Positions 323 to 45,043 of a DNA stretch of 64,000 nt are shown piece after piece. Where the stretch lies: NCBI GenBank assembly GCA_043810165.1, contig JBDROJ010000023.1, positions 4,675 through 68,674 on the forward strand. Direction: 5' to 3'. How positions within the stretch are numbered: the stretch's first letter is position 1; each line of letters starts with the position of its first letter. Source of the DNA: a bacterium (lineage in GTDB: Bacteria; Patescibacteriota; Patescibacteriia; Magasanikbacterales; GWA2-37-8). The notes below the pieces were generated by a model. It did not search any database and was not told the origin of the DNA. It saw nothing but the letters and a program-made list of their open reading frames with translations. The translations under genes and the position numbers were made by a program.

Positions 323-396
323 ATTGGGGATATTATATCAAATACAGAACAAATTAACAAATATTTCAGAGTAAAATATTTCAGAGTAAAAAGTAT

Positions 397-433
397 TAAA
401 AAAACCTCCTGATTAAATCCGGAGGTTTTTTCG
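397..433. terminator. bidirectional intrinsic terminator hairpin (aacctcc...ggaggtt flanked by A-run and T-run)
   Basis: Perfect 7-bp stem with A6 on the left and T6 on the right. Sits between convergent minus-strand genes. Confidence 0.6.
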
Positions 434-442
434 AAGTATTTG

Positions 443-538
443 TTAAGCTTCTGGTGTAGCTTCTACTGCCGGTGTTTCTTCTACCGGAGTTTCTGGTGTA
501 GCTTCTACTACTGGCTTATCGCAGTCACAATCACACAT
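443..538 (-). CDS. tiny Cys-Asp / Thr-Pro-Glu repeat peptide MCDCDCDKPVVEATPETPVEETPAVEATPEA (31 aa), hypothetical
   Basis: Hand-translated minus-strand ORF, ATG at 538 and TAA at 445-443. It contains a 19-bp direct nucleotide repeat (451-469 and 491-509). No SD; too short for the ORF track. Confidence 0.2.
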   Translation of the reverse strand: MCDCDCDKPVVEATPETPVEETPAVEATPEA

Positions 539-742
539 AGGTTTGTGTTTAGAAATAAAATGTCAGCCAAGTGTAGCTAACAGTATATATTATAGCATAT
601 TTTGGCAATTTTGTCAAGATTTTGAGGTTTTTAGCCTTACTATTACCAACCATAGGTTGATTGGCAATAGTATGGCCAGGCACGCGTGGTTGCGTGCCTG
701 GCGGATGTGGTTGGATAGTCGGGCTGTTTTGCCCTATATCCA

Positions 743-905
743 GGTACTGCGGTCCTCGGTCGGGTGGCCGTTGAATGGCCACTCTTCCTGGATCTCCAGC
801 CGGGGAGGGGCCTCGTTTGACCGCACCGCCCTGTCGAGAATTTCTCGCAGAGTCAGTGCTTTTTTCTCTTCCCGCGGTGTTGGATTTTCCGTTTTGTCCT
901 GCATC
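743..905 (-). CDS. hypothetical small protein (54 aa) in GC-rich island A
   Basis: Hand-translated MQDKTENPTPREEKKALTLREILDRAVRSNEAPPRLEIQEEWPFNGHPTEDRSTWI, preceded by an aggaaaggaaaaaag purine tract. Same strand as the neighbouring small ORFs. Confidence 0.25.
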
Positions 906-943
906 TTTTTTCCTTTCCGTAGGTGGATTGATAATCGGTTATA

Positions 944-1111
944 TCACACGCGGTTTGCCATGAGCATGTCACGGGACAGGATGTCCTCGTGGGGCGGGCC
1001 CGGGTTGATCGGGGTCATGCCCGGCACCCAGTCACGCTTGTTGCACTGGCAGTTCTGGCTGTTTGTGGCCTTGGTGTTCTGGTTGCGAGCGATTTCTCCG
1101 AACGAGTTCAT
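944..1111 (-). CDS. hypothetical small protein (55 aa, MNSFGEIARNQNTKATNSQNCQCNKRDWVPGMTPINPGPPHEDILSRDMLMANRV)
   Basis: Internal Met of track ORF 944..1207. It has a canonical SD (AAGGAG, 7 nt before the ATG at 1111). The region is GC-rich. Confidence 0.35.
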   Translation of the reverse strand: MNSFGEIARNQNTKATNSQNCQCNKRDWVPGMTPINPGPPHEDILSRDMLMANRV

Positions 1112-1384
1112 AGCACTTCTCCTTTTTAGGGAAATTGGTTGATTCGGCGGATATTGGTGAACGAGAAGATATATTTGATTATATACTCTCTCGTTCACCA
1201 ATATCACGATTTTAAAGAACTAAAAAACCACCTGCGCGGTGGTTAATGATCTATGTAATACGCAAAATCACTAACTCACCGCTGAGTGGTTAATAACAAT
1301 GTTAATAATAACATTATATTGCGATTTTATATATTCCATAGTATTAATATATTAACACAGTGATGGTTTTCGTCAAATGTTAAT

Positions 1385-1393
1385 TGTGGATAA
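1385..1393 (-). other. perfect DnaA box TTATCCACA (reverse complement of tgtggataa)
   Basis: Exact 9-mer. One of five perfect copies in the window. Confidence 0.5.
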
Positions 1394-1403
1394 GTTGAAG
1401 TAT

Positions 1404-1440
1404 TGTTCGGGCCCCCGGCGTCTATCCGGGGGCCCGAACA
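1404..1440. promoter_or_regulatory. 15-bp perfect GC-rich hairpin (tgttcgggcccccgg / ccgggggcccgaaca, 7-nt loop)
   Basis: Read directly from the sequence. Lies between the minus-strand ORFs 1469..1654 and 944..1111. No U-run follows, so it is more likely a processing or stability element than a simple terminator. Confidence 0.5.
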
Positions 1441-1468
1441 GAACCGCGAACATCCCCCTTGCTTGCCT

Positions 1469-1654
1469 CTAGTCTCTCCAGTGATCTGCCCATTTCAGCA
1501 TCTCGCTGGAGAATCTTTCCAATGCCATGGCCTGCGTTTCGATCATCTTGATGATGCTCACCAGGGCAAGCCCGCGTACGGCGTCGCGATCGTCCCTAGC
1601 TCGTGCCAGTTTGGATTGCAGACGCACCATATTGCCGTAGTATAGTTCGGTCAT
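1469..1654 (-). CDS. hypothetical small helical protein (61 aa), first gene of the island A mini-operon
   Basis: Track ORF. SD aggagag 6 nt before the ATG. A consensus sigma70 promoter lies upstream on the minus strand. GC-rich. Confidence 0.45.
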   Translation of the reverse strand: MTELYYGNMVRLQSKLARARDDRDAVRGLALVSIIKMIETQAMALERFSSEMLKWADHWRD

Positions 1655-1681
1655 TCTGTTCTCTCCTAAATATTTTGCTTA

Positions 1682-1709
1682 ATTATATGATTTTTTACAA
1701 AAAAGTCAA
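1682..1709 (-). promoter_or_regulatory. sigma70-type promoter (TTGACT - 16 nt - TATAAT) driving the island A minus-strand ORFs
   Basis: Minus strand reads ttgactttttttgtaaaaaatcatataat. The -35 is the reverse complement of 1704-1709 and the -10 of 1682-1687. Gene start is at 1654. Confidence 0.5.
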
Positions 1710-1728
1710 CTGTTAGATTGTATAATAA

Positions 1729-1737
1729 TTATCCACA
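1729..1737 (+). other. perfect DnaA box TTATCCACA, about 25 bp upstream of the -35 of the island A promoter
   Basis: Exact 9-mer. With the 1385-1393 box it forms an inverted pair flanking gene 1469..1654. Confidence 0.5.
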
Positions 1738-1884
1738 ATCTGATTTGACAGTGATTTTAGCTTGTGTTAATGTATTAATACTATGAATTACAAGATAAAT
1801 AACAGCTACTCCTTTTTCTTTTTTTGGAACCTCTGCTCCGAGGCGTCTTGTTAATGCATAAATAAATTCTTATCAACAAGCAAC

Positions 1885-1908
1885 CTCGGAAAGCGAGGTT
1901 TTTTTAAT
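1885..1908 (+). terminator. intrinsic terminator-like hairpin (aacctcg gaaag cgaggtt + T7)
   Basis: 7-bp stem followed by a T-run. Confidence 0.45.
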
Positions 1909-2031
1909 TTAGCTCTTTGAAACAGTATAAATAGGCGAAAGAAAGCGCGTGATTAAATCCAGTGTTTTCTTTCGCCTATTTACCGAATGTCAGAAAAACC
2001 AGAACAAGGTCGGAAGACCAGGAGGATGATC

Positions 2032-2199
2032 ATGTCACATCTGTATGGTATCACGGCAGATGACGTCTTGGCCGGGCTCAAAAACCTGACCAAACAGTCC
2101 CATGACGACAACCAGGAAAGGAAGGATGATGAGGAGGTAAGTCCTAAGCCCAAGCTGGCCGTCGTGGTTGGCGACTTCTGGTGGCCCCCCGGCTGTTAG
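2032..2199 (+). CDS. hypothetical small protein (55 aa, MSHLYGITADDVLAGLKNL...VVVGDFWWPPGC)
   Basis: Track ORF 1987..2199. Start chosen at the ATG at 2032 because AGGAGG at 2019-2024 sits 7 nt upstream. GC-rich. A hairpin at 2218-2250 follows. Confidence 0.3.
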   Translation: MSHLYGITADDVLAGLKNLTKQSHDDNQERKDDEEVSPKPKLAVVVGDFWWPPGC

Positions 2200-2363
2200 T
2201 CTGGGGTTTCCGTATCTCAGGCCTGTTCCGATGTATTTCGAAGCAGGCCTTCCTTTCAAGTATTTTTGCTAAAGAATATTTAAAAGGGAGAGAGTCAAAA
2301 AACCAAGCTACTTGGTTTTTTTATTGACTAAATTAAAAAAACCAATTATAATTTGGTAATAAT

Positions 2364-2435
2364 GCGGGCGTGGTATAATGGCTATTACTCCACCCTTCCA
2401 AGGTGGTTACGCCGGTTCGATTCCGGTCGCCCGCT
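2364..2435 (+). tRNA. tRNA-Gly (anticodon UCC)
   Basis: Hand-folded cloverleaf: acceptor GCGGGCG/CGCCCGC, anticodon stem CCACC/GGTGG with loop CUUCCAA, T-loop TTCGATT. CCA is not encoded. Confidence 0.85.
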
Positions 2436-2623
2436 CAGGACCGAAAAAGCAGTCTGAAATGAGGCTGTTTTTTGCTTGACTAAGCTTAGAATTCCTAGTT
2501 CGCACAAGGCTTTTTTGACCTCTTCTTTTTCTAGGCTATTTTTAAGAACCAAATATGGTTTTTCCAATTGAATAAAGAGTTTTTTGTCCCTGTAAGTAAA
2601 GTTCTTACCAACCAGTTTTTACG

Positions 2624-2941
2624 GTGCAGTATCCAGTTGCTAAAAGTCTGTATGAAACACAGCTATATTGTGATTTCATTATATATCATCCAGAAAAGCA
2701 CGAGAAGTGTTTAATTATTGAATCTAAGTGGCAACAGTCTGCAGGTTCTGTTGATGAAAAATTTCCTTATCTTGTACTTAATATCAGAGAAAGATATCCG
2801 TGTTCAACTATAGTTGTGTTAGATGGAGGTGGTTACAAAAAAGGGGCGGAGAAGTGGTTAAGGGATCAAATTGATGATAAATTAATCCACATATTTAGTA
2901 TGATGGAATTTCAAAAGTGGAGTAATAGTGAGGAGCTGTAA
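2624..2941 (+). CDS. PD-(D/E)xK-like nuclease-fold small protein (105 aa), possibly a truncated remnant
   Basis: D...ESK motif region (CDFIIYHPEKHEKCLIIESKWQQ) fits the PD-(D/E)xK catalytic pattern. Starts with GTG right after an in-frame TAA. Terminator-like hairpin at 2977-3003. Confidence 0.35.
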   Translation: MQYPVAKSLYETQLYCDFIIYHPEKHEKCLIIESKWQQSAGSVDEKFPYLVLNIRERYPCSTIVVLDGGGYKKGAEKWLRDQIDDKLIHIFSMMEFQKWSNSEEL

Positions 2942-2976
2942 TATATAGTGTGACGAGGGTGGGGGCATATTACGAT

Positions 2977-3005
2977 CAGCGTAAAATATCGCTATACTAA
3001 GCGGT
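2977..3005 (+). terminator. terminator hairpin atatcgct-atacta-agcggtat + T-run
   Basis: 8-bp stem with one G-U pair, followed by ttttatttttc. Same hairpin family as 7650-7672. Confidence 0.45.
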
Positions 3006-3055
3006 ATTTTATTTTTCCCGCAAAAGATGATAGAATTGAGATAATAACTATAATT

Positions 3056-3925
3056 ATGTCTAAAGGTATTTTCTATCTAATAATAGCCTTGTTCACTTAC
3101 GGTTTTACTCACATTACCGATAAGCTTGGTATTGAAGCTGGGGTTGATCCAGCTGTTTTTACTTTTTTTAGAATATCATTTGCCATGGTATTTGTGGGTA
3201 TTCTCTGGTTCTCGTTAAGAAAGAAGAAGAAATTGCAATTTAAAAAAGCCGACATTAAACAAGTAGCTATTATTGGTATGTTGGCTTCAGGTTTAATGGC
3301 TCTTCTAAGTATACAAGCGCTAGAATATACTACGGCTACCAATAAAGGGATAATGCAAGGGTTGTATACTTCAGCCACTTTAGTAATTGCTTTTCTGTGG
3401 ATCAAAGAAAGATTTTCCAAGTTATTCTACCCAACATTTGCAGTAATGATTTTTGGCTTGATTTTACTTACCAGTAATGGTTTTATGCAATTGCCCAACA
3501 AAGGAGATTGGTTGTTGTTTTTAACTATACCTATGGTTGGTTTCTGCAATGTCTACGCTAAGAAGATAATGTCTGGCTTGCATTCCTTAACTGTTAGTTT
3601 TGGTAGGTTTATCTTTGGCTCACTGTTTTTATTGTTAGCTTTGCCCTTTATTGGTTTAGATAGCATACACACTGTTCAATATGGTATATTATGGGTGATT
3701 TGTTCTGGCGTATTAACTTCGATAAGAGTTGTAAGTTTCTATAAAGGAATTCAAGAAGTAGGACCAGGTTTGGCCGCAACTATTTTGGCTGTTTCACCAG
3801 CTATAACAGCTATTTCAGATCATCTTATTATCGGGACTTCTTTTAGTAGTTTACAGGTAGTTGGTTTAGTTTTAGTGCTGGGTTCTGCTTTTATTGTGGC
3901 GAGATTAAAAGCAAGTTATAAATAG
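3056..3925 (+). CDS. EamA/DMT-family transporter (10-TM drug/metabolite exporter type)
   Basis: 289 aa, about ten hydrophobic helices with duplicated halves, as in the EamA family. Confidence 0.75.
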   Translation: MSKGIFYLIIALFTYGFTHITDKLGIEAGVDPAVFTFFRISFAMVFVGILWFSLRKKKKLQFKKADIKQVAIIGMLASGLMALLSIQALEYTTATNKGIMQGLYTSATLVIAFLWIKERFSKLFYPTFAVMIFGLILLTSNGFMQLPNKGDWLLFLTIPMVGFCNVYAKKIMSGLHSLTVSFGRFIFGSLFLLLALPFIGLDSIHTVQYGILWVICSGVLTSIRVVSFYKGIQEVGPGLAATILAVSPAITAISDHLIIGTSFSSLQVVGLVLVLGSAFIVARLKASYK

Positions 3926-3938
3926 TTATATTTAATAA

Positions 3939-4364
3939 ATGATTCATATGCTAAACCACATAACATTAAGAGTAAGCGACTTTGAAAAAAGTCAGGATTT
4001 TTTTTCAAAAGCACTTGAACCACTTGGTTATAAAATACTCAAAAAAGACAAGGATGAAAATATAGATTATACATCTGTCGGATATGCGGTAATAGACAAA
4101 GAAGGTCATAGAGATTTTTGGGTTAAAAAGGTTAAGGATTACAAAGTTACAACACCTTCATTTTCGTGTTTAGCTTTTACTGCTACCAGCAAAGAAATGG
4201 TTAATGAATTCCATAAAGCGGCTATTGAAGCTGGTGGCAAAGATAACGGCAAACCTGGTTACCGTGTTAAATATCATCCAGGTTATTATGCAGCCTATGT
4301 ATTAGATCCAGATGGATATAATATTGAAGCTGTTTTTGATGATATGAGTATGTTAGATAAATAA
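3939..4364 (+). CDS. VOC-family (glyoxalase/bleomycin-resistance fold) protein
   Basis: Starts with an HITLRVSD-type motif and ends with YYAAYVLDPDGYNIEAV, as in glyoxalase I-like VOC proteins. Confidence 0.7.
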   Translation: MIHMLNHITLRVSDFEKSQDFFSKALEPLGYKILKKDKDENIDYTSVGYAVIDKEGHRDFWVKKVKDYKVTTPSFSCLAFTATSKEMVNEFHKAAIEAGGKDNGKPGYRVKYHPGYYAAYVLDPDGYNIEAVFDDMSMLDK

Positions 4365-4374
4365 TATTTACACC

Positions 4375-5235
4375 ATGTTAGATACTATAAAAGGAATAAT
4401 CTTAGACATAGACGGTGTTATCGTGGGTAGTAAAAAAGGAGTTAACTCCCCCGACCCACATCCTGATGTAATCAAAAGATTAAAACAAATAAAAGAAGGT
4501 GGTATTCCGATAAGTCTTTGTACAGCTAAGCCGTATTTTGCTATTGAAAAAATAGTTAGAGAAGCTAATTTGGATAATGTTCATATTGTTAATGGTGGTG
4601 GAGCAATAATGAATCCAATTACTGGCAAGATAGTCAAAACTCACAGTATCGATCAAACTATTTTAAGAAGTATTTTAGAAATGCTTTTAAAAGAAGATGT
4701 TTATACTGAGTTATATACAGTTGAGGATTATTATATCCAGAAAAGCCAGTATCGACATATTACTGATAAACATACTCATGTTTTACAAAGAGAACCAAAA
4801 GTAGTTGAATCTTTACTAGATGAGATTTCTTCTTTAAAAGTAGTTAGGATATTGGCTGTTACTGAAGACAGAGAAGATAGATATATCTTTGAAGATAAAT
4901 TCAAGCCTTTTACCGACAGTCTAAATCTTGGTTGGGGAGTCCACCCAGTAATCCTTCCTTTACAGTTTGGCGGTATTACTCCTAAAGGTATATCTAAAAG
5001 CCATGGAGCGGTTGAGATTGCGGAGAATTTTGGTGTGTCTCTTAACGATATGCTTGGCGTAGGTGATAGCAAACGTGATTGGGAGTTTATAGGGCAATGC
5101 GGATATGGGGCAGCTATGGGAAACGCCAGTCAAGCTTTAAAGGATTTAGTTTTGACCAAAGAGAAGAGTCGTTCATATATCGGCGGTGACGTTGATGAAA
5201 ATGGTATTTTGGAGATATTGGATTATTTTATTTAA
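4375..5235 (+). CDS. HAD-superfamily hydrolase, Cof-type (HAD-IIB) phosphatase
   Basis: N-terminal ILDIDGV (DxD) motif and C-terminal GVGDSKRD...GYGAAMGNA motif, as in Cof/YbiV phosphatases. Confidence 0.75.
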   Translation: MLDTIKGIILDIDGVIVGSKKGVNSPDPHPDVIKRLKQIKEGGIPISLCTAKPYFAIEKIVREANLDNVHIVNGGGAIMNPITGKIVKTHSIDQTILRSILEMLLKEDVYTELYTVEDYYIQKSQYRHITDKHTHVLQREPKVVESLLDEISSLKVVRILAVTEDREDRYIFEDKFKPFTDSLNLGWGVHPVILPLQFGGITPKGISKSHGAVEIAENFGVSLNDMLGVGDSKRDWEFIGQCGYGAAMGNASQALKDLVLTKEKSRSYIGGDVDENGILEILDYFI

Positions 5236-5245
5236 ACTGACGGGC

Positions 5246-5722
5246 ATGGGAGAAATCACCATAAGACAATACAAGGATTCTGACAAGGATAAGATATGGG
5301 ATTTACATATTAAAGTTCTGGAAGACGCTGGTGCGTTGGCTGATAGTGGGCCATGGGATGATGATTTGAAAAATATACAACATGAGTATATTAGTGGTGG
5401 CGGTACTTTTTTAGTAGGTTTATCAGGTGACGAAATAGTGGTGATGGGAGCCTTAAAGGTTGTAGATAATAATAATGTTGAAATAAAAAGGATGAGAGTG
5501 TTACCAAAATATCAGAGAAAAGGTTTGGGTCAGTTAATGTTGGATAAATTAGAAGAGAAAGCCGTTGGTAGTGGTTATAATCAAATTCAGCTAGACACAA
5601 CAGATAAACAAATAGCAGCTCAAAATTTTTATGTTAAAAATGGATACAAAGAAGTGAGCCGTATTAAAGGAAAAAAGTTTGAAAGCATAATTTACAAAAA
5701 GAATTTAGTGGCTGGTATATAG
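5246..5722 (+). CDS. GNAT-family N-acetyltransferase
   Basis: Track ORF 5186..5722 trimmed to the ATG at 5246 (MGEITIRQYK...). Contains the acetyl-CoA-binding motif RVLPKYQRKGLGQLML. Confidence 0.75.
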   Translation: MGEITIRQYKDSDKDKIWDLHIKVLEDAGALADSGPWDDDLKNIQHEYISGGGTFLVGLSGDEIVVMGALKVVDNNNVEIKRMRVLPKYQRKGLGQLMLDKLEEKAVGSGYNQIQLDTTDKQIAAQNFYVKNGYKEVSRIKGKKFESIIYKKNLVAGI

Positions 5723-5810
5723 TGTGGAAGGGGTGTGTACAAAACTAGACTCACCTAACCTTGCACAAATCCCCAACAATCCCAGTTCGCACGTCCTCCA
5801 CTACCCCGCT
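5714..5810 (+). repeat. intergenic repeat family, copy A (~95 bp; contains the 28-mer cagttcgcacgtcctccactaccccgct)
   Basis: Near-identical to 7543-7634 and shares the perfect 28-mer with 6750-6777. Begins at the stop codon of the GNAT gene and is followed by T7. Confidence 0.8.
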
Positions 5811-5854
5811 TTTTTTGATGGACAAACAGGTTAAAATATGCTAAAATAACACAT

Positions 5855-6109
5855 ATGACCATACAGCAATTTATAAAAAAGAGACCATATCTGGTTTGGT
5901 ATACAAAGAATTATGATGAACTCTCTGAAGATGCGATTTTAGAAGCCACTCTTAACTACGGTGATTTTGATGATGTTAAAAAAATGGTAAAAATATTGGG
6001 CATGAGAAAGGCGGCTGATATATTTAAAAAGAAAAATAAACAGAAAAGAAATAATTTCAAACCCCAAGTGTCTCATTATTTTAAATTGTTTTTTAAGCAA
6101 CATGCATAA
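5855..6109 (+). CDS. small protein (84 aa) upstream partner of the AbiEii-like nucleotidyltransferase; putative antitoxin/partner
   Basis: Overlaps the downstream gene by 8 nt (ATGCATAA). No recognisable domain by eye. Confidence 0.45.
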   Translation: MTIQQFIKKRPYLVWYTKNYDELSEDAILEATLNYGDFDDVKKMVKILGMRKAADIFKKKNKQKRNNFKPQVSHYFKLFFKQHA

Positions 6110-6716
6110 AGAAGTATTGAACCAAAAACAAACAGAACTACTACCTTTATTAAAGAAGTTTAATAAAGATTTTGGTTTAGTTGGTGGTACAGCTATCGCC
6201 TTACAACTTGGTCATCGTCAATCAATAGATTTTGATCTGTTTTCTAATAAGCCAATTAAGCCGAGTGATATTCGACGTAAGATAAAAGGAGTTGCTAATA
6301 TAGATAAGGTATTAATTAATGAGAAAGATGAGTATACGGTTATTGTCAATGGGGTAAAAATTACTTTTCTTTTTTATCCATTTAAAATAAAATTTTCTAA
6401 ATCGTTGTCAAATATTATAAAATTACCTGATCTAAAAACATTGGCAGCAATGAAGGCATATGCCCTAGGTAGGCGAGCTAAATGGAAAGATTATGTTGAC
6501 CTATATTTTATTATGAAAGATAAGTATGGTATAAAATCGGTGACGAAAAAGGCCAAACAGATTTTTGAAGAAGAATTTAATGAGAAGATATTTAGAATAC
6601 AATTAAGTTATTTTAAAGATATTGATTATACTGAAAAAGTAGAATATACCAACGATCAGAAAACACCAGATTCAGTTATCAAAAAAGAATTAAAAGATAT
6701 CAGTTTAAAAATTTAA
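6102..6716 (+). CDS. nucleotidyltransferase, AbiEii/AbiGii-toxin-like family (DUF1814-type)
   Basis: GGTAIALQLGHRQSIDFDLF matches the GS...D.D nucleotidyltransferase signature of the AbiEii family. 204 aa. Confidence 0.6.
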   Translation: MHKEVLNQKQTELLPLLKKFNKDFGLVGGTAIALQLGHRQSIDFDLFSNKPIKPSDIRRKIKGVANIDKVLINEKDEYTVIVNGVKITFLFYPFKIKFSKSLSNIIKLPDLKTLAAMKAYALGRRAKWKDYVDLYFIMKDKYGIKSVTKKAKQIFEEEFNEKIFRIQLSYFKDIDYTEKVEYTNDQKTPDSVIKKELKDISLKI

Positions 6717-6729
6717 AGTTCCTAGTACT

Positions 6730-6813
6730 ACACCTATTAGGAACTATTTCAGTTCGCACGTCCTCCACTACCCCGCTCATACGAAAATATAGCTAAAACA
6801 AGCGGTATTTTTT
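6730..6813 (+). repeat. intergenic repeat family, copy B (perfect 28-mer plus terminator-like tail)
   Basis: cagttcgcacgtcctccactaccccgct at 6750-6777, then catacgaaaata...aagcggtattttttt as in copy C. Confidence 0.8.
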
Positions 6814-6900
6814 TAATACCCAGGATCTAGGTATTAGCGTTTTTTGACAAAAGATGGTAATCTATTTTTAGACAATCATTTTGCCTAATGGAGGTGTCAG

Positions 6901-7419
6901 GTGAATAGAAATATTTTGGTGCAGGATGAGAGAAAGGTAAGACGCCTACTTCATCTTTGTAGACTAATGCAGGCGGTGTCTTTTTCAACCAAAGACATAA
7001 ATCATGAATTAGCTCGTAGAGTTGGGTATAAAAATAAGCATACGCTTGTAAATGCTATACGTCTATCTGCTTCATGGCGAAGTGTTGAGGAATTGGATAA
7101 ATATCCTTTCACCAAACCGAGCGATAGATTTATACTCAATACAGATCCCAAGAAAGATCCTGAGAGTGGGGATTATGTCACCGTACATAACTTTGTATGG
7201 AGAGACGAAGCACTTAGAAAAAGTGGTTTCATAAATGAGGAAGGCCAGCCTCTCATAGAACTACCTATTCCGAGCGAGATTGTTACTCACGCAGAAAGAG
7301 TAGCTGGGTGGTTGTACAAAAAAAGTCCTACTTACGTTTTGAATGCATTAATTGGTAATCCAGCAGAAACATTGAGTTTATTGCATGAAATGCGGAAGAG
7401 AGGTAAAAATGAAAGTTGA
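6901..7419 (+). CDS. hypothetical protein (172 aa), GTG start with GGAGG SD
   Basis: Track ORF. ggaggtgtcagGTG. No recognisable domain. Flanked by repeat copies B and C. Confidence 0.5.
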   Translation: MNRNILVQDERKVRRLLHLCRLMQAVSFSTKDINHELARRVGYKNKHTLVNAIRLSASWRSVEELDKYPFTKPSDRFILNTDPKKDPESGDYVTVHNFVWRDEALRKSGFINEEGQPLIELPIPSEIVTHAERVAGWLYKKSPTYVLNALIGNPAETLSLLHEMRKRGKNES

Positions 7420-7420
7420 G

Positions 7421-7530
7421 GAGGTGTCTGAATGTAAAAAATGGGAGGGCAACAAAGACCCGCCCCATGTCTGGTATCGCCAGCACGGGCGGGCAGACAC
7501 ATTTCCACCTAATCAAGGTGTTTTTTTTTA
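7421..7530 (+). ncRNA. GC-rich nested-stem element plus intrinsic terminator (candidate structured RNA or 3' UTR element)
   Basis: Outer stem gtgtctg(7424-7430)/cagacac(7494-7500). Inner stem cccgccc(7459-7465)/gggcggg(7487-7493) enclosing the hairpin ctgg-tatcg-ccag. Then cacct-aatca-aggtg + T9. GC-rich, unlike its surroundings. Confidence 0.4.
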
Positions 7531-7542
7531 ATCTAAAAATAT

Positions 7543-7672
7543 ATAGTGTGGAAGGGGTGTATGTAAAACCAAATTCACCTAACCTTACACAAATTATCCA
7601 TCACCCCAGTTCGCACGTCCTCCACTACCCCGCTCATACGAAAATACCGCTATAATAAGCGGTATTTTTGGT
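7543..7672 (+). repeat. intergenic repeat family, copy C (full length, with terminator hairpin ataccgct-ataataa-gcggtat + T-run)
   Basis: Aligns by eye with copy A over ~95 bp and with copy B over the 28-mer and tail. Confidence 0.8.
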
Positions 7673-7680
7673 TATTGTAG

Positions 7681-8322
7681 CTATAGTTGGTTTATTAGGT
7701 CGTAATTAATTTCTTTAATACTGCTTAACACTCGTGTAGCCAGACTAAAATCATTGTTTTTAGTATGCTTATTGGGGATGGCTATACTTTTCATACCAGC
7801 ACGATGAGCTGCCACTATACCTTTTTGAGCATCTTCTAAAACCAGGCAATTTTTTGGATCTATGTTCAGATCGTTGCTGGCCGTTAAGAATATCTCGGGA
7901 TCAGGTTTGTCTTTAGAAATTTGTTCGGCAGTTACTATAGTTGAAAAGTATTTTTTTAAGTTATTTGAACCTAATACTATATTTACAGCCATTTTTGATG
8001 AGCTGGTAGCTAAACCTAATTCAAATTTTTGCTTCAGCAGTCTAATTGTTTGGCTAACACCTGGAAACAGTCGAGCTTTTTCTTTGAGTATTTTTTTATA
8101 TAATTTCTTTTTTTCTTGGTAAACCATATTTGTATCTAAGTCTATTTTTTCTTGTTTTACGTATTTGTGTACATCTAATCCCTGGGTCGTAAAGTATTTG
8201 TAGAAATTTTTATCGCTTAGTTCAACTCCAAATTTTTTGAGAGTGGTTGTGTAGCAATAACACTGCAAAGGTTCGCTGTCAACGATTAGACCGTCCATGT
8301 CGAATATAATAGCTTTTATCAT
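7681..8322 (-). CDS. HAD-IA family hydrolase (beta-phosphoglucomutase/phosphatase-like)
   Basis: N-terminal IIFDMDGLIVDSE (DxDG) motif and C-terminal LVLEDAQKGIVAAHRAGM, typical of HAD-IA enzymes. Confidence 0.75.
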   Translation of the reverse strand: MIKAIIFDMDGLIVDSEPLQCYCYTTTLKKFGVELSDKNFYKYFTTQGLDVHKYVKQEKIDLDTNMVYQEKKKLYKKILKEKARLFPGVSQTIRLLKQKFELGLATSSSKMAVNIVLGSNNLKKYFSTIVTAEQISKDKPDPEIFLTASNDLNIDPKNCLVLEDAQKGIVAAHRAGMKSIAIPNKHTKNNDFSLATRVLSSIKEINYDLINQL

Positions 8323-8352
8323 ATTTTTTATTAATTAAAATTTATAGAGTAA

Positions 8353-8616
8353 TTGTATACTATTTTTAAATTACACACAAAATTGACTGCTAATTTTGTT
8401 TGTTTAAAAAGAATTAAGGTTGACGGGATCTCAGTCAGCCAGGTAGCTGATGAGCACGGTATTAGACCAAACACAATTTACACCTGGTTGGCTAAAGGCG
8501 TTAACAACGCACCAACCTGGAGTGAGGTATCTAAATTAAAAAAAGAAAACAAGATGTTATTAGAGCTTGTCGGAGAAATTACTGTTAAACTTAGTCAGTC
8601 CCAAAAAAAGAATTAG
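8353..8616 (+). pseudogene. IS3-family transposase OrfA remnant (HTH domain, N-terminus not conserved)
   Basis: See the mobile element entry. Confidence 0.5.
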
Positions 8617-8618
8617 TT

Positions 8619-9170
8619 ATGAATGGTCCTAACAAGACCAAGCTGGCTGAGATGATGGGAGTTTCAAGACGATTATTGTATTATGACCACAAACAACCAA
8701 ATAAAGATTGGGAGTTAAAGACCAGGATAGAACTAGCCTTGCAAAACCATCCTAGCTATGGACACAAAAGACTAGCCACCTATTTAGGCAGAAACAAAAA
8801 AGCAGTACTAAGAGTGATGAATATGTTTGGCATTAAGCCATACCGACGAAAAGGCAAAAAATACAAGTATATTAAGCTAAAAAAGGATAAGATATTTACC
8901 AACCTGCTTTTTGAAGACAAACCACAGTGTCCCAATCACATCTGGGCTTCTGACTTTACCCACATAGCTAAGTTTAACAATAAGTGGGTTTATCTGGCCA
9001 CTATACTAGATTTATTCACTAGAAAGATTGTAGGTTTTAGTATTCTAATGAATCACAGTAACCAACTGGTTATAGAAGCTTTGCTAATGGCCATATTTAC
9101 AAATAATCTAGCAAGAGTTAATTCAAAGACAGCCCAAATAGGTTGTCTTTTTAGTAACTCCAGCACATGA
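8619..9170 (+). pseudogene. IS3-family transposase OrfB, 3'-truncated (integrase core incomplete)
   Basis: HTH_21-like N-terminus and the first DDE motif region are present; the rest of the catalytic core is missing. Confidence 0.55.
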
Positions 9171-9259
9171 TAACTCCTTACAATTATTACAAAGAATTAG
9201 ACGGGCTGGAGTGCGCCCGTACATGAAACAGGAACAGATGGAAGAGAAAGGATATATGA

Positions 9260-9412
9260 CTATTTTTTTTCATCCGGTATTTTTGACGAATCGTCTTGAG
9301 ATTCGTCGTCAACTATTTTTTCTCCATCTACTTTGAACTGATACATCGTTTCTTCAATCCACTCTCTGGTTGAAGGAACTTCAGTTTTTTTGTCCTGCTT
9401 GAGTTTGGGCAT
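9260..9412 (-). CDS. hypothetical small acidic protein (50 aa, MPKLKQDKKTEVPSTREWIEETMYQFKVDGEKIVDDESQDDSSKIPDEKK)
   Basis: Hand-translated. A strong SD (GGGAGGGG) lies immediately upstream of the ATG at 9412, but the spacing is short (~4 nt). Confidence 0.3.
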   Translation of the reverse strand: MPKLKQDKKTEVPSTREWIEETMYQFKVDGEKIVDDESQDDSSKIPDEKK

Positions 9413-9523
9413 TGCCCCTCCCTTGATTTGGTTGTGTCATTAATTATTACTTAAAAATAGTTTTTTGGCAAATTCTATCTTGACAAGAGTTTGAATTTGT
9501 TTTAATATATCAACCAATGTATC

Positions 9524-9597
9524 GCGGTAGTAGCTCAGTTGGCTAGAGTGTTTCCTTGCCAAGGAAAAGGTCGCCGGTTCGAATCCGGTCTACCGCT
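9524..9597 (+). tRNA. tRNA-Gly (anticodon GCC)
   Basis: Acceptor GCGGTAG/CTACCGC, D-arm TAGCTCAGTTGGCTAGAG, anticodon stem TTTCC/GGAAA with loop TTGCCAA, T-loop GTTCGAATC. Confidence 0.85.
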
Positions 9598-9649
9598 CTT
9601 GTTCTAAATAGGATCTACAAAGCAATTTCTAGTTTAAGATCACAAATAT

Positions 9650-9721
9650 CGCGGGGTAGAGCAATGGCAGCTCGGCGGGCCCATAACCCGCAGGTTCCCG
9701 GTTCGAGTCCGGGCCCCGCAA
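9650..9721 (+). tRNA. initiator tRNA-fMet (anticodon CAU) with the C1:A72 mismatch and three G-C pairs at the base of the anticodon stem
   Basis: CGCGGGG...GGGCCCATAACCCGC...GTTCGAGTCCGGGCCCCGCA+A closely parallels bacterial initiator tRNA. Unpaired C1/A72 and the GGG/CCC anticodon-stem end are the initiator hallmarks. Confidence 0.85.
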
Positions 9722-9722
9722 C

Positions 9723-12416: not shown

Positions 12417-12953
12417 ATGACAAGACCTGATGATCTGATTGTTAATACTTGGCCTACAGATACTAGGGTTTGTGTTGATGCAAATGGCGTGGTGCGCGCC
12501 ATCACCCTTAGTCTTATGCCCGGTTTGAGGGACAGAGTTGGCATGGATGCGGATTACGATACCTATCGGCGATTGGGCAAAGATGGGAGGTATCGTAGAG
12601 TGCACAATCTGTACGGGGCCTGCCGTGCTCATCGTTATGCATCTGAATTTGAGTTGAATGATGAACGTCTGTCAGTCCGTGGTATTGAGATATGCAATGA
12701 TTTGGGGGTAAGATTGGTCGGGATTGGCAGTCACACGACAGATGAACGGCTGATCACCGAGATTCTGTACCCAGTTCAACGACAATTGTTGATTCTCAAG
12801 CGCGTCTATGACGATCAAAAAGTCAAAGCGCGTTGTCACTTTGAACGCATGGCCGATCTTAAGGATAGCCGTGGGCGGGATAACCCCGGTGCCAAACGGG
12901 TCAGTGGTGTGGTCGCGCGTGTTGCATGGGATAGAAGGTCGGCAAATATTTGA
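12417..12953 (+). CDS. hypothetical protein (178 aa) in GC-rich island B
   Basis: SD (aagga, 7 nt) before the ATG. Protein-like composition. Overlapping alternative-frame ORFs on both strands make the call uncertain. Confidence 0.35.
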   Translation: MTRPDDLIVNTWPTDTRVCVDANGVVRAITLSLMPGLRDRVGMDADYDTYRRLGKDGRYRRVHNLYGACRAHRYASEFELNDERLSVRGIEICNDLGVRLVGIGSHTTDERLITEILYPVQRQLLILKRVYDDQKVKARCHFERMADLKDSRGRDNPGAKRVSGVVARVAWDRRSANI

Positions 12954-12989
12954 CGCATCCAACCATGGCTTAAGTTCTATGACGAGGCC

Positions 12990-13412
12990 ATGCGTGCCAG
13001 GATCATGCAAATTCAATGGCACTTGGAGCAGGCTCGTGGTGTGTATTCTCAAATCAAGAGTTGGTATTGGCAACGTGGGTATGATAATCGCCTTCAGTTC
13101 AAAGATCGAGACGCCATGCTGGTCAAGCTTCGCTACCACATTAGCCGGCTTAACATCAAGCCATACAGGCGGCATTACTTGCATCTATGGAAAGAAGCTG
13201 AAATCATGCAAAATTGTTCTGGGCATGATTGGTATGATCTTTGGGATATGGCTGACCGCGGTTTTCAATCTGCAGGGTTGATGCTGGCGCGTAAGCGGTT
13301 AGAGTTGGCCAAGATGCATCTGCGACTGGCTGGATTAGGCTCTGCAGTGTATGTAGCCTTGTTACCCACCTGTTTTTTTCTAAGCCTAGTACATATGTAC
13401 GGTACCGGGTAA
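12990..13412 (+). CDS. hypothetical protein (140 aa) with a C-terminal hydrophobic segment, island B
   Basis: gaggcc-ATG SD-like context. GC-rich. Follows the previous ORF after a 36-nt gap. Confidence 0.3.
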   Translation: MRARIMQIQWHLEQARGVYSQIKSWYWQRGYDNRLQFKDRDAMLVKLRYHISRLNIKPYRRHYLHLWKEAEIMQNCSGHDWYDLWDMADRGFQSAGLMLARKRLELAKMHLRLAGLGSAVYVALLPTCFFLSLVHMYGTG

Positions 13413-13523
13413 GCCAGTCCGGGCAACCAAAATTCCAAGGAGGTTGTCACCAGCCTCCGCCATTTGTCATAAATTTTTATGACAAGCGGTTGATGCTGGT
13501 GGCAAAATTTTTTTAGATATCAA

Positions 13524-13556
13524 AAAACACTCGGAGATATTCTTGAGTGTTTTTTA
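13524..13556 (+). terminator. intrinsic terminator (aacactc-ggagatattctt-gagtgtt + T-run)
   Basis: 7-bp stem followed by ttttttattt. Confidence 0.5.
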
Positions 13557-13708
13557 TTTATACGGATTTTGTTTTCTCGGTCTAATACTCCTTATTACAA
13601 AGTACCAAAGAATATTAGCGGACCGAGATAAAGCAAAAACCTTACACCCAATCCGCCTCAACCCTATGTTTTTGTTGAAGTTTTTTGGGCGTGATCCGAG
13701 GGAGTGTT

Positions 13709-42149: not shown

Positions 42150-42186
42150 TTTTTTTTAAAAAAATAGCCACTCCTCACGGAGTGGC
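42150..42186 (-). terminator. intrinsic terminator gccactcc-gtga-ggagtggc + U-run, 25 nt upstream of the pyrB start and downstream of argH
   Basis: 8-bp GC-rich stem followed on the minus strand by tatttttttaaaaaaaa. Confidence 0.65.
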
Positions 42187-42192
42187 CGATTG

Positions 42193-42234
42193 CTAATTAA
42201 GATTTTCAATTGTGTATAGGTAGGTATATTTCAT
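42193..42234 (-). CDS. candidate pyr leader mini-ORF MKYTYLYTIENLN (13 aa), essentially leaderless
   Basis: Hand-translated. ATG is ~14 nt downstream of a TATACT -10. Stop codon is 6 nt before the terminator stem. Confidence 0.25.
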   Translation of the reverse strand: MKYTYLYTIENLN

Positions 42235-42248
42235 AGGCTCTGTTACAG

Positions 42249-42277: not shown

Positions 42278-42286
42278 ATGTCGACT

Positions 42287-44947: not shown

Positions 44948-44974
44948 AATGTGGTAGTATTGACTAGTTAAAGG

Positions 44975-45043
44975 TCAACGCAAACAACCACGCTTCCGAA
45001 GCGCGTGTTTACGACGACGATTTTGTTTAGTCTTGATAATCAT
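44975..45043 (-). CDS. candidate Arg-rich leader peptide MIIKTKQNRRRKHALRKRGCLR (22 aa), nearly leaderless
   Basis: Hand-translated. Five Arg codons (CGT x4, CGG). A hairpin gcgcttc-g-gaagcgt overlaps the Arg codons. A putative TTGACA - 18 nt - TATGGT promoter lies at 45053-45082. Confidence 0.3.
   Translation of the reverse strand: MIIKTKQNRRRKHALRKRGCLR

What the first reader, a model, noticed from the sequence alone, without database searches (positions are those of the whole stretch)
397..2260. GC-rich island next to tRNA-Gly(UCC) with a promoter-to-terminator mini-operon of tiny SD-bearing ORFs
From about 440 to 2260 the sequence is visibly far more G+C-rich than the rest of the window, and it ends ~100 bp before a tRNA gene, a classic island integration context. 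On the minus strand a perfect TTGACT-16-TATAAT promoter (1682-1709) is followed by four tiny ORFs (61, 55, 54 and 31 aa; 1469..1654, 944..1111, 743..905, 443..538). Most have canonical AGGAG-type ribosome binding sites. They are punctuated by a 15-bp all-GC hairpin (1404-1440) and an 11-bp GC hairpin (672-700), and closed by a terminator (397-433). Two perfect DnaA boxes (1385-1393 and 1729-1737) bracket the first gene as an inverted pair. None of the peptides resembles a known family; they include Cys-rich and Pro/Thr-rich sequences. This looks like a horizontally acquired small-peptide module, possibly bacteriocin/RiPP-like or phage-derived, but no modification enzymes are present.
Basis: partly seen in the sequence, partly recalled or inferred. 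Interest (0 to 1): 0.65.

Follow-up and report, generated by a model that had tools for sequence, protein, structure and literature searches.

The report
Foreign micro-genes behind native attenuator leaders
The "GC-rich island" is a mosaic: three short pieces of foreign-looking DNA carrying four tiny orphan genes sit behind what look like the bacterium's own amino-acid-sensing leader switches, and nothing supports a bacteriocin cluster or a tRNA-integrated island.

Summary
The GC-rich signal is real, but it is neither one island nor one operon.

**Three foreign blocks.** They lie at 660-1115, 1400-1665 and 1991-2260, at 53-57% GC against 37% for the window. Spacers of 30-32% GC separate them. 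Each block has a canonical Shine-Dalgarno site, one or two small ORFs and a GC hairpin with no U-tract:
- P3 (55 aa) plus P2 (56 aa)
- P4 (61 aa)

**Why they look foreign.** Their GC3 is 0.67-0.86, against 0.19-0.41 for host genes. Host genes lack Shine-Dalgarno sites (1 of 39). All four are orphans in every search that worked.

**The spacers are host-style.** The two "DnaA boxes" are the inner ends of a 62-nt inverted repeat holding two outward promoters. Nine nt after each -10 comes a leaderless 22- or 23-codon ORF (NVIINIVIN; FFFFW). Then comes an intrinsic terminator with an alternative antiterminator pairing, then a paralogous 21-24 bp hairpin. The same arrangement, with an RRR run in the small ORF, precedes argG in this window.

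**Best reading (confidence about 0.5).** Two native leader-peptide attenuators drive horizontally acquired orphan micro-genes of unknown function.

**Not supported.** A RiPP or bacteriocin cluster, tRNA-site integration, or a single mini-operon.

The parts
397..433 (.). Bidirectional A-run/stem/T-run terminator that closes the P1 transcript
   Evidence: Inverted repeat I10. Its loop, TGATTAAATCC, is shared with the apex of hairpin R (repeat D2).
443..538 (-). P1, a native-style 31-aa ORF (MCDCDCDKPVVEATPE...) with an internal 27-nt repeat spaced 42 nt apart
   Evidence: GC3 is 0.19, host-like, and periodicity gives p=0.0003. It has no Shine-Dalgarno site, like host genes. The repeat is D3.
589..617 (-). 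Consensus promoter TTGACA-17-TGnTATAAT for P1
   Evidence: 12 of 12 positions match.
672..700 (-). 11-bp GC hairpin without a U-tract; 3' end of the P3-P2 cassette
   Evidence: -24.9 kcal/mol.
734..904 (-). P2, a 56-aa orphan ORF with a foreign codon signature
   Evidence: GC3 is 0.67. It has a weak SD (GGAAAGGA). It is in frame with P3, separated by one TGA and 13 codons.
944..1111 (-). P3, a 55-aa orphan ORF (NCBI hypothetical protein ABIH87_01825)
   Evidence: GC3 is 0.86 and periodicity gives p=9e-6. The SD is AAGGAG, 7 nt before the ATG. It matched only itself among 5.8e9 proteins.
1150..1205 (-). Long hairpin L (18+6 bp), paralogue of hairpin R
   Evidence: z = -9.6. Two G.U pairs occur on the minus (sense) strand only. 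Six of the 18 basal pairs differ on both sides from hairpin R and none is broken.
1220..1244 (-). Intrinsic terminator of the left leader unit
   Evidence: Stem AACCACC/GGTGGTT followed by a U-run. An alternative B:C pairing forms in constrained folds.
1271..1339 (-). Left leader micro-ORF, 22 aa: MEYIKSQYNVIINIVINHSAVS
   Evidence: The ATG lies 9 nt after the -10 and is conserved in both arms. Its length and geometry match the arg leader.
1332..1393 (-). Left arm of the 62-nt inverted repeat: TTATCCACAAT box (1385-1393) and outward promoter TTGACG-16-TAATAT (1376..1349)
   Evidence: (I1).
1404..1440 (-). 15-bp perfect GC-rich hairpin without a U-tract; 3' end of the P4 cassette
   Evidence: -34.7 kcal/mol.
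1469..1654 (-). P4, a 61-aa orphan ORF (NCBI hypothetical protein ABIH87_01830), predicted to be one long helix
   Evidence: GC3 is 0.68 and the SD is AGGAGA. It matched only itself among 5.8e9 proteins. AlphaFold2 predicts a helix over residues 2-60 at pLDDT 92.7.
1682..1709 (-). Promoter TTGACT-16-TATAAT for P4
   Evidence: 11 of 12 positions match.
1729..1790 (+). Right arm of the inverted repeat: TTATCCACAAT box (1729-1737) and outward promoter TTGACA-17-TGTTAATGT (1745-1773)
   Evidence: The promoter hexamers were read from the sequence.
1783..1854 (+). Right leader micro-ORF, 23 aa: MNYKINNSYSFFFFWNLCSEASC
   Evidence: The ATG lies 9 nt after the -10. Four Phe codons and one Trp codon sit immediately 5' of hairpin arm A. 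The Rfam Phe_leader match is weak: 19.3 bits, E=4.7, not significant.
1882..1907 (+). Intrinsic terminator of the right leader unit
   Evidence: Stem AACCTCG/CGAGGTT followed by U7. The three-state folding logic is shown.
1928..1982 (+). Long hairpin R (21+3 bp), paralogue of hairpin L
   Evidence: z = -8.3. The sense strand folds at -30.4 kcal/mol against -22.6 for the antisense strand, and the 2 G.U pairs are sense-specific.
2032..2199 (+).
   Evidence: GC3 is 0.70 and the SD is AGGAGG. An exhaustive HMMER search returned only summed weak hits to repeat proteins. The AlphaFold2 model has pLDDT 61.
2219..2250 (+). GC-rich hairpin without a U-tract; 3' end of the P5 cassette
   Evidence: -18.9 kcal/mol.
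2297..2322 (+). Native-type A-run/T-run terminator before the tRNA promoter
   Evidence: Seen in the fold and read from the sequence.
2324..2436 (+). The tRNA's own promoter (2324-2352) and tRNA-Gly(UCC) (2364-2436); a neighbour, not part of the cassettes

Best explanation
The locus is a mosaic of native regulatory DNA and foreign coding cassettes.

**Native part (inferred from sequence and folding).** Two paralogous units point outward in inverted orientation. Each has these elements in order:
- a TTATCCACA box
- a sigma-70-type promoter
- a leaderless 22- or 23-codon leader ORF with a run of regulatory codons (Ile/Val/Asn on the left, Phe4-Trp on the right)
- an intrinsic terminator whose 5' arm can instead pair with the end of the leader ORF
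- a paralogous 21-24 bp RNA hairpin

This is the logic of ribosome-mediated transcription attenuation. A ribosome that stalls on the codon run frees the antiterminator pairing, and transcription reads through. A ribosome that reaches the stop codon, or no ribosome at all, lets the terminator form.

**Foreign part (shown by composition and signals).** Behind each attenuator, and between the two, sit short cassettes. Each is a canonical Shine-Dalgarno site, a GC3-rich orphan ORF or two, and a GC hairpin without a U-tract: P3-P2, P5 and P4. They were acquired horizontally from one or more unknown donors that use Shine-Dalgarno sites and have GC-richer DNA.

**Inferred consequence.** P3-P2 and P5 would be made mainly when translation of the leader stalls, as under Ile/Val or Phe shortage. 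What the four micro-proteins do is unknown. P4 is predicted to be a single long helix, possibly a coiled coil. P5 appears mostly disordered.
For: **Foreign cassettes**
- GC3 is 0.67-0.86 for P2-P5, against 0.19-0.41 in about 45 host ORFs.
- The named frames show the coding pattern GC3 > GC1 > GC2, with chi-square p from 0.036 down to 9e-6.
- 7 of 8 GC3-outlier ORFs in the window have a Shine-Dalgarno core, against 1 of 39 host starts (p=1e-6). Ten of those host starts are identical to the NCBI protein annotation.
- Their 3' hairpins are GC stems without U-tracts. Native terminators here are A-run/T-run hairpins.

**Attenuators**
- The left and right units are colinear over about 300 nt.
- In both, the ATG lies 9 nt after the -10.
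- Constrained folding gives the three expected states in both units, although their sequences differ.
- The long hairpins differ at 6 of 18 basal pairs, always on both sides, and none is broken. Their G.U pairs occur only on the sense strand.

**Internal positive control**
- Upstream of argG the same window has box, TTGACA-18-TATGGT, 9 nt, a 22-codon ORF MIIKTKQNRRRKHALRKRGCLR, a terminator, then an SD-less argG.
- Upstream of pyrB it has box, promoter, a 13-codon ORF and a terminator.
- Leaderless short ORFs acting as amino-acid-responsive attenuators are documented in mycobacteria (bioRxiv 10.1101/834739, found).
Against: - No relative of this locus could be found, so nothing here rests on conservation.
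- The genes downstream are not Phe or Ile/Val biosynthesis genes.
- Phe, Ile and Asn are the residues an AT-rich sequence encodes by default, so the codon runs could be compositional. The Ile/Val/Asn run is itself a 7-bp hairpin.
- An ATG-started frame stays open for 22 codons by chance with probability of about 0.2 per unit.
- In the arg control, the simple constrained fold did not show an obvious antiterminator.
- A promoter-like site, GTGATA-18-TATAAT, lies inside hairpin L, so P3-P2 might be transcribed independently.
- The role of the long hairpins and of P4 is unexplained.
- The micro-ORFs have no homologues, so they could be recently arrived passengers with no function.
Confidence: 0.5

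Rival explanations
1. The GC-rich ORFs are non-functional debris. Under this reading, recently inserted fragments of foreign DNA keep open frames only because GC-rich DNA has few stop codons, and the flanking units regulate nothing of consequence.
For: - All are orphans.
- Long antisense ORFs also occur in the blocks.
- P3 and P2 are in one frame, split by a single TGA.
- The second island shows the same pattern: 178 aa, TGA, 140 aa. This could mean nonsense-disrupted genes.
- P5 is predicted to be mostly disordered.
Against: - All four ORFs have ATG starts. P3, P4 and P5 have a canonical Shine-Dalgarno site at 6-8 nt; P2 has only a weak one.
- Codon-phase GC is significant in exactly those frames.
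- Each has a 3' hairpin.
- Each sits just downstream of a native promoter or leader unit, in the right orientation.
Confidence: 0.2
2. The two outward units are trans-acting small RNAs, or small toxic peptides of type I toxin-antitoxin style, rather than attenuators. The micro-ORFs would then be separate transcription units.
For: - Each unit is a promoter-to-terminator RNA of about 120-125 nt.
- The right unit has a CU-rich, anti-SD-like 5' part (CUCCUUUUUCUUUUUUU).
- Promoter-like hexamers lie inside hairpin L.
Against: - The ATG is conserved at the same distance from the -10 as in the arg leader.
- Both stop codons fall inside the extended terminator hairpin.
- The peptides are too polar for membrane toxins.
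- Duplex energies with the ORF start regions mostly fell within the spread seen for host genes (most |z| <= 2.5; largest -3.7 for the left RNA with P5 and -4.8 with the 58.5-kb ORF) and tracked target GC content; I judged them uninformative.
Confidence: 0.15
3. The region is the remnant of a tRNA-associated integrative element or prophage regulatory region. In this reading a central small gene is flanked by divergent paralogous promoter-operators and RNA hairpins, as in the lambda or HK022 immunity regions with their nut and put sites.
For: - The layout is divergent and paralogous, with structured RNA elements that differ by compensatory changes.
- Accessory genes lie nearby: PD-(D/E)XK, AbiEii and an rve fragment.
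Against: - There is no integrase and no repeat of the tRNA 3' end.
- The blocks lie 5' of the tRNA.
- P4 is a single helix, not a helix-turn-helix repressor.
- There are no PHROG, phage, plasmid or viral-contig matches.
- The promoter arms share their box and geometry with the chromosomal arg and pyr leaders.
Confidence: 0.08
4. The region is a bacteriocin or RiPP precursor module.
For: - The ORFs encode small peptides.
- P1 is Cys-rich and Pro/Thr-rich.
- P5 ends in GDFWWPPGC.
Against: - No modifying enzyme, transporter, protease or immunity gene was found in 0-10.8 kb.
- No family matched.
- The peptides are unrelated to each other.
- No recognisable leader motif is present.
Confidence: 0.03
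5. The pattern is an assembly chimera in the metagenome-assembled contig.
For: - The source is a metagenome-assembled genome.
- Composition switches abruptly at the block borders.
Against: - Three blocks of 270-460 bp, each flanked on both sides by host-style DNA, are not what mis-joins produce.
- The block borders fall at a Shine-Dalgarno site on one side and a hairpin on the other.
- The flanks on either side of the blocks form a coherent inverted duplication.
Confidence: 0.03

Closest known systems
Leader-peptide transcription attenuators of amino-acid operons (pheL-pheA, ilvL, trpL, hisL; pyrL-pyrBI)
   Same: A short ORF lies directly after the promoter and carries a run of codons for one or two amino acids. 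That run lies immediately 5' of mutually exclusive hairpins, the last of which is an intrinsic terminator with a U-run. The same window has an Arg-run leader before argG and a leader plus terminator before pyrB.
   Different: The leader is leaderless: its ATG lies 9 nt after the -10. The downstream genes are foreign orphan micro-ORFs rather than biosynthetic genes. The two units are inverted paralogues with an extra 21-24 bp hairpin. No Rfam family reaches its threshold; Phe_leader scores 19.3 bits against a cutoff of 55.
Leaderless polycysteine short ORFs acting as Cys-responsive attenuators in mycobacteria (bioRxiv 10.1101/834739)
   Same: A leaderless short ORF with a codon run lies at the 5' end of a polycistronic transcript and controls downstream expression.
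   Different: The lineage and the amino acids differ. Here an explicit intrinsic terminator follows the ORF. Nothing has been tested experimentally.
Horizontally acquired orphan-gene islets
   Same: The ORFs have atypical composition and codon usage and no homologues.
   Different: The foreign DNA comes as ORF-sized pieces with their own ribosome-binding sites and hairpins, embedded in native regulatory DNA. It is not a contiguous block with foreign intergenic regions. It is GC-richer than the host; from my own knowledge, orphan genes are more often AT-richer than their host.
Integron gene cassettes
   Same: A promoterless unit of short 5' UTR, small ORF and 3' hairpin is expressed from an external promoter.
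   Different: No IntI-type recombinase was found among the ORFs between 2.6 and 10.8 kb. The hairpins are perfect GC stems and, on my reading of the sequence, have no attC core sites. The cassettes do not abut each other. Host promoters and terminators lie between them.
Lambda/HK022-type immunity regions (PL/PR with nutL/nutR or putL/putR)
   Same: A central small gene sits between outward-facing paralogous promoter regions, each followed by paralogous structured RNA.
   Different: There is no helix-turn-helix repressor and there are no phage genes. The hairpins lie after the terminators, not before them.

Membership tests
Leader-peptide transcription attenuator | A short ORF starts at or just after the transcription start | tested here: met
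   In both units, and in the arg leader, the ATG lies 9 nt after the predicted -10. The ORFs are 22, 23 and 22 codons long. The start sites are predicted, not measured.
Leader-peptide transcription attenuator | A run of codons for the sensed amino acid, positioned just 5' of the first hairpin arm | tested here: inconclusive
   The right unit has FFFFW immediately before arm A. The left unit has VIINIVIN immediately before arm A. These residues are also the ones AT-rich DNA encodes by default, and the left run is itself a hairpin.
Leader-peptide transcription attenuator | Mutually exclusive terminator and antiterminator pairings that depend on ribosome position | tested here: met
   In constrained minimum-free-energy folds of both units, a stalled ribosome gives B:C pairing with the 3' terminator arm free. 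A ribosome at the stop codon, or none, gives a terminator. This is in silico only.
Leader-peptide transcription attenuator | The downstream operon serves the sensed amino acid | tested here: not met
   Downstream lie the orphan micro-ORFs P3-P2 and P5, which match no family. The arg and pyr leaders in the same window do meet this feature.
Leader-peptide transcription attenuator | Conservation and covariation in related genomes | not testable with these tools
   No relatives were found. rpoB and rpoC are singletons at 90% identity. The exact tRNA 72-mer had 0 hits in metagenomes. The arm motif had 0 hits in viral contigs. Only the two in-window paralogues could be compared.
tRNA-targeted integrative island | An integrase gene next to the tRNA and a direct repeat of the tRNA 3' end at the far border, with the island on the 3' side of the tRNA | tested here: not met
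   The tRNA 3' end is not repeated; the only other match is the other tRNA-Gly. The GC-rich blocks are 5' of the tRNA. No integrase lies in 0-8.6 kb, and the nearest candidate is an rve fragment at 8619-9170.
RiPP or bacteriocin gene cluster | Precursor peptide(s) together with a modification enzyme, an export or protease component, or an immunity gene | tested here: not met
   The neighbours are an FtsK-like membrane protein, the tRNA, PD-(D/E)XK, EamA, glyoxalase, HAD, GNAT and AbiEii. No peptide family matched.
Integron cassette array | An IntI tyrosine recombinase with attI, and cassettes bounded by attC sites with GTTRRRY cores | tested here: not met
   No tyrosine recombinase was found among the ORFs at 2.6-10.8 kb. 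The hairpins are perfect GC stems with 6-7 nt loops. By direct reading of the sequence I saw no core sites at the borders. The remaining window ORFs were not all scanned.
Chromosomal or plasmid replication origin (DnaA-box cluster) | A cluster of several DnaA boxes with an AT-rich unwinding element, near a GC-skew switch | tested here: not met
   There are only two boxes here, each 7-8 nt upstream of a -35 hexamer. The same box sits 5-8 nt upstream of the arg and pyr leader promoters. GC skew does not switch at this position.

The most novel reading that the evidence does not exclude
The paralogous unit of attenuator, long hairpin and CCGAAT may be a dedicated capture-and-expression site. Homology between the two units stops immediately after CCGAAT, and unrelated foreign cassettes of Shine-Dalgarno site, ORF and GC hairpin follow. 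On this reading, a bacterium that does not itself use Shine-Dalgarno sites inserts foreign micro-genes at a hairpin-marked junction and places them under amino-acid-starvation control. That would be a gene-capture platform unrelated to integrons.
Probability: 0.07. Interest if true: 0.8.

Novelty: new variant of a known kind. Interest (0 to 1): 0.42.

Why it matters
If this reading is right, three things follow.
- Classical leader-peptide attenuation, here in a leaderless form, operates in a very sparsely sampled bacterial lineage that does not use Shine-Dalgarno sites. Arg and pyr leaders sit in the same window as built-in controls.
- Such starvation-sensing switches can end up driving horizontally acquired micro-genes that keep their foreign translation signals.
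- The clean split between native signals (AT-rich, SD-less, A-run/T-run terminators) and foreign signals (SD, GC3-rich, GC hairpins) gives a simple rule for finding recent acquisitions in this genome.

It does not reveal a new natural-product cluster, and the function of the peptides stays unknown.

Tried and rejected
- **Structured RNA instead of genes.** Rfam found only the tRNAs at gathering thresholds and nothing credible at E<=5. Strong codon-phase GC periodicity argues for coding sequence.
- **Antisense shadow of a conserved gene.** Seven alternative or antisense ORFs had no Pfam match. The 199-aa antisense ORF had no tblastn match in plasmids.
- **DNA similarity to phages or plasmids.** None was found.
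- **Peptide homologues.**
  - P4 and P3 matched only themselves among 5.8e9 proteins.
  - A concatenated P3-P2-P5 query returned nothing and did not even recover P3 itself, so I treat it as uninformative.
  - P5's hits in 1.84e9 representatives are summed weak matches of about 25 bits per repeat to a Y-x-V-T-A-A-D-V-A-A-G motif. That motif occurs in giant DUF11, DUF7507 and CARDB surface proteins. I rejected these as homology.
  - P2 had no hit in JGI metagenome contigs, and P2-P5 had none in viral contigs.
  - No peptide is a paralogue of another, or of anything else in the window.
- **Synteny with relatives.**
  - The EamA neighbour found only 30%-identical archaeal loci.
  - The exact tRNA 72-mer had 0 metagenome hits.
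  - The one JGI contig with a >90%-identical ArgG has a different gene order.
  - The exact-sequence look-ups found no encoding contig.
- **Recoding of TGA.** Host genes use TGA as a stop codon, so the in-frame TGA between P3 and P2 is left as an unexplained coincidence.
- **Small-RNA target prediction.** Duplex energies mostly tracked GC content and were uninformative.
- **Structure.** P4 is predicted as a single helix, so a fold search would be meaningless. The P5 model has low confidence. Two initial family scans failed because of a coordinate error.

Full report
**Source and context**

The window is part of a 68.8-kb contig of a metagenome-assembled genome that NCBI labels only as "bacterium" (locus tags ABIH87_...). 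It is chromosomal:
- rpoB and rpoC lie at 16.7-24.1 kb, followed by ileS.
- gatB, argG, argH, a glutamine synthetase and a pyr operon are also present.

Overall GC is 37.3%. TGA serves as a normal stop codon. The lineage is very poorly sampled:
- RpoB, RpoC and IleRS are singletons at 90% identity among about 15 billion proteins.
- The neighbouring EamA gene found no close relative in 185,579 species genomes.
- The exact tRNA-Gly sequence does not occur in the JGI metagenome contigs.

**Checking the observation**

Most listed features exist at the stated coordinates. The GC richness, however, is patchy:

| Segment | GC | Nature |
|---|---|---|
| 660-1115 | 56.6% | GC-rich block |
| 1116-1399 | 32% | spacer |
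| 1400-1665 | 56.4% | GC-rich block |
| 1666-1990 | 30.5% | spacer |
| 1991-2260 | 53.3% | GC-rich block |
| 2261-2363 | 22% | spacer |

This is also not one operon. A canonical terminator at 1244-1226 separates P4 from P3. P1 has its own 12/12 consensus promoter. The window holds other GC-rich stretches of the same kind at 12.4-14.0 kb and 58.5-59.0 kb.

**The GC-rich blocks are foreign coding cassettes**

Host ORFs have GC3 between 0.19 and 0.41. The values for the five small ORFs are:

| ORF | P1 | P2 | P3 | P4 | P5 |
|---|---|---|---|---|---|
| GC3 | 0.19 | 0.67 | 0.86 | 0.68 | 0.70 |

P1 is therefore host-like and P2-P5 are not. In P2-P5 the GC content differs by codon position in exactly the frames that start with an ATG behind a ribosome-binding site (p from 0.036 to 9e-6). 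That argues for coding sequence and against structured RNA. Rfam found nothing apart from the tRNAs.

A second, independent signal is the ribosome-binding site. Host genes in this window essentially have none: 1 of 39 starts has an SD core, and that one is misplaced. Ten of those starts match the NCBI protein sequences exactly. Host upstream regions are pure A/T, often with a TATAAT only 3-20 nt before the ATG. That suggests leaderless or short-leader mRNAs.

By contrast, P3 (AAGGAG), P4 (AGGAGA) and P5 (AGGAGG) have textbook sites at 6-8 nt. So do two GC-rich ORFs elsewhere in the window, at 14047 and 58508. Counting all GC3 outliers gives 7 of 8 against 1 of 39 (p=1e-6).

Each cassette also ends in a GC-stem hairpin with no U-tract. 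Native terminators here are A-run/stem/T-run hairpins. The foreign unit is therefore "SD plus ORF(s) plus GC hairpin", and the DNA between the units is native in style.

**All four foreign ORFs are orphans**

- Pfam, PHROGs, NCBIfam, PADLOC and PDB sequences gave no match.
- P4 and P3 matched only themselves among 5.8 billion proteins.
- P2 had no match in metagenome contigs, and P2-P5 had none in viral contigs.
- There was no DNA match in phages or plasmids.
- P5's only hits in an exhaustive HMMER search were summed weak matches to a short motif. That motif is repeated many times in giant surface proteins. I do not accept these as homology.
- The peptides are unrelated to each other.
- Antisense and alternative frames hit nothing.
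- P4 is predicted as one long helix (pLDDT 92.7). The P5 model is low-confidence, with one short helix.

**The AT-rich spacers form an inverted duplication of a regulatory unit**

The two "DnaA boxes" are the inner ends of a 62-nt imperfect inverted repeat, 1332-1393 and 1729-1790. Each arm holds an outward-facing promoter with an extended -10. Read outward, the left unit (minus strand) and the right unit (plus strand) are colinear for about 300 nt. The shared order is:
1. box
2. -35 and -10
3. 9 nt, then an ATG
4. a 22- or 23-codon ORF
5. an extended hairpin ending in an intrinsic terminator and U-run
6. the motif TTTAGYTCTTTRAAA
7. a 21-24 bp hairpin
8. CCGAAT

Homology stops there and the different foreign cassettes begin.

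The two long hairpins differ at 6 of their 18 basal pairs, always on both sides, and no pair is broken. Their G.U pairs exist only on the strand that is sense for the downstream ORFs. So the pairing has been maintained, most likely at the RNA level.

**Mechanism proposed for the units**

The two small ORFs encode MEYIKSQYNVIINIVINHSAVS on the left and MNYKINNSYSFFFFWNLCSEASC on the right. In both, the codon run sits immediately 5' of the first hairpin arm. In both, the stop codon falls inside the extended hairpin.

I folded each unit with the ribosome-covered part held single-stranded. Both gave the same three states, despite different sequences:

| State | Result |
|---|---|
| Free RNA | long hairpin ending at the U-run, so transcription terminates |
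| Ribosome stalled on the codon run | middle segments pair, the 3' terminator arm is left unpaired, so transcription reads through |
| Ribosome at the stop codon | the simple terminator forms |

This is the logic of leader-peptide attenuation.

**An internal control in the same window**

The strongest support comes from elsewhere in the window. Upstream of argG lies the same box (in the opposite orientation) and a TTGACA-18-TATGGT promoter. Nine nt later comes an ATG and a 22-codon ORF, MIIKTKQNRRRKHALRKRGCLR. Then come a terminator with a U-run and the SD-less argG start. Upstream of pyrB there is a box, a promoter, a 13-codon ORF and a terminator.

Four of the five perfect TTATCCACA boxes in the window therefore sit 5-8 nt upstream of the -35 of a promoter that is followed by a micro-ORF and a terminator. 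Leaderless short ORFs acting as amino-acid-responsive attenuators have been described in mycobacteria (bioRxiv 10.1101/834739).

**What remains inferred or unexplained**

- No relative is available, so the attenuator reading rests on in-window paralogues and folding.
- The downstream genes are not Phe or Ile/Val genes.
- The codon runs use the residues AT-rich DNA favours anyway.
- A chance open frame of this length has a probability of about 0.2 per unit.
- The simple fold of the arg control did not show an obvious antiterminator.
- A promoter-like site lies inside hairpin L.
- The long hairpins could be RNase III sites, second terminators or protein-binding sites. I could not tell which.
- P4 sits between the arms with its own promoter, and its role is unknown.
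- How ORF-sized foreign pieces came to lie precisely behind native leaders is unexplained. Integron-type capture fails its membership test, and I saw no shared junction motif beyond CCGAAT on the 5' side.

**Verdict**

The most likely description is two native leader-peptide attenuators, inverted paralogues of each other. They are followed by, and flank, foreign orphan micro-gene cassettes. This is a modest variant of known kinds, made more interesting by the sharp contrast between native and foreign expression signals.

Noticed in passing
window, all gene starts (e.g. 3056, 16760, 20233, 30250, 47406-, 54209-, 56052-): Host genes essentially lack Shine-Dalgarno sites (1 of 39). Their upstream regions are A/T-only, often with a TATAAT 3-20 nt before the ATG, which suggests leaderless or short-leader translation is the norm in this organism.
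   Followed up: partly
window 44915-45096 (minus strand), upstream of argG: A candidate arginine attenuator. It has a TGTGGATAA box, TTGACA-18-TATGGT, a leaderless 22-codon ORF MIIKTKQNRRRKHALRKRGCLR (45043..44975), a hairpin at 45005-44989 and a terminator at 44946-44926 with a U-run. The SD-less argG start follows at 44890.
   Followed up: partly
window 42150-42294 (minus strand), upstream of pyrB (41208-42131): A candidate pyr-operon attenuator. It has a TGTGGATAA box, TTGACC-17-TATACT, a 13-codon ORF MKYTYLYTIENLN (42234..42193) and a terminator at 42187-42166 with U7. The genes pyrB, pyrI, pyrC, pyrD, pyrE and pyrF follow.
   Followed up: partly
window 1385, 1729, 16314, 42286, 45088: The perfect DnaA-box 9-mer TTATCCACA occurs 5 times against 0.74 expected, always in intergenic DNA. 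Four copies lie 5-8 nt upstream of a -35 hexamer of a leader-type promoter. The fifth lies in the long region upstream of rpoB. It may be a transcription-factor site rather than an origin element.
   Followed up: partly
window 12417-14047: A second GC-rich stretch holds three SD-led ORFs that match no known family. ORFs of 178 aa (12417-12953) and 140 aa (12990-13412) are in the same frame, separated by one TGA and 12 sense codons with no drop in GC. They may be one 331-aa gene with a nonsense mutation or read-through. A 112-aa ORF lies at 13709-14047 on the minus strand. Their GC3 is 0.46-0.62.
   Followed up: partly
window 58508-59078: A third GC-rich orphan of 155 aa has GC3 0.53 and an AAGGAGG site. 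By reading the sequence, I saw a long imperfect hairpin at about 59018-59078 and a native terminator after it. No family or phage match was found.
   Followed up: partly
window 734-1111 (minus strand): P3 and P2 are in the same reading frame, separated by one TGA and 13 sense codons. Host genes use TGA as a stop, so this is probably coincidence or a split gene. It remains unexplained.
   Followed up: partly
window 2624-9722: The stretch between tRNA-Gly(UCC) and tRNA-Gly(GCC)/tRNA-Met carries accessory-type genes: a PD-(D/E)XK nuclease domain protein (2624-2941), an AbiEii toxin (6102-6716) and a truncated rve integrase-core ORF (8619-9170). It may be a variable region.
   Followed up: no
window 359-388 and 443-538: A perfect 15-nt tandem repeat, AAATATTTCAGAGTA x2, lies between the FtsK-like gene's promoter and the terminator. 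P1 contains a 27-nt repeat at 42-nt spacing that encodes VEATPE-type repeats after a CDCDCD start.
   Followed up: no
window 555-617 (minus strand): The 12/12 consensus promoter of P1 is followed at once by a 9-bp hairpin and a U-run (582-555), ahead of the SD-less ATG. This could be a 5' stabiliser, an early terminator, or the terminator of the upstream P3-P2 transcript.
   Followed up: no
window 398-431 versus 1938-1971: The terminator hairpin at 397-433 and the apex of long hairpin R share the loop TGATTAAATCC and 76% identity over 34 nt. The long hairpins may therefore derive from native terminator hairpins (repeat D2).
   Followed up: no
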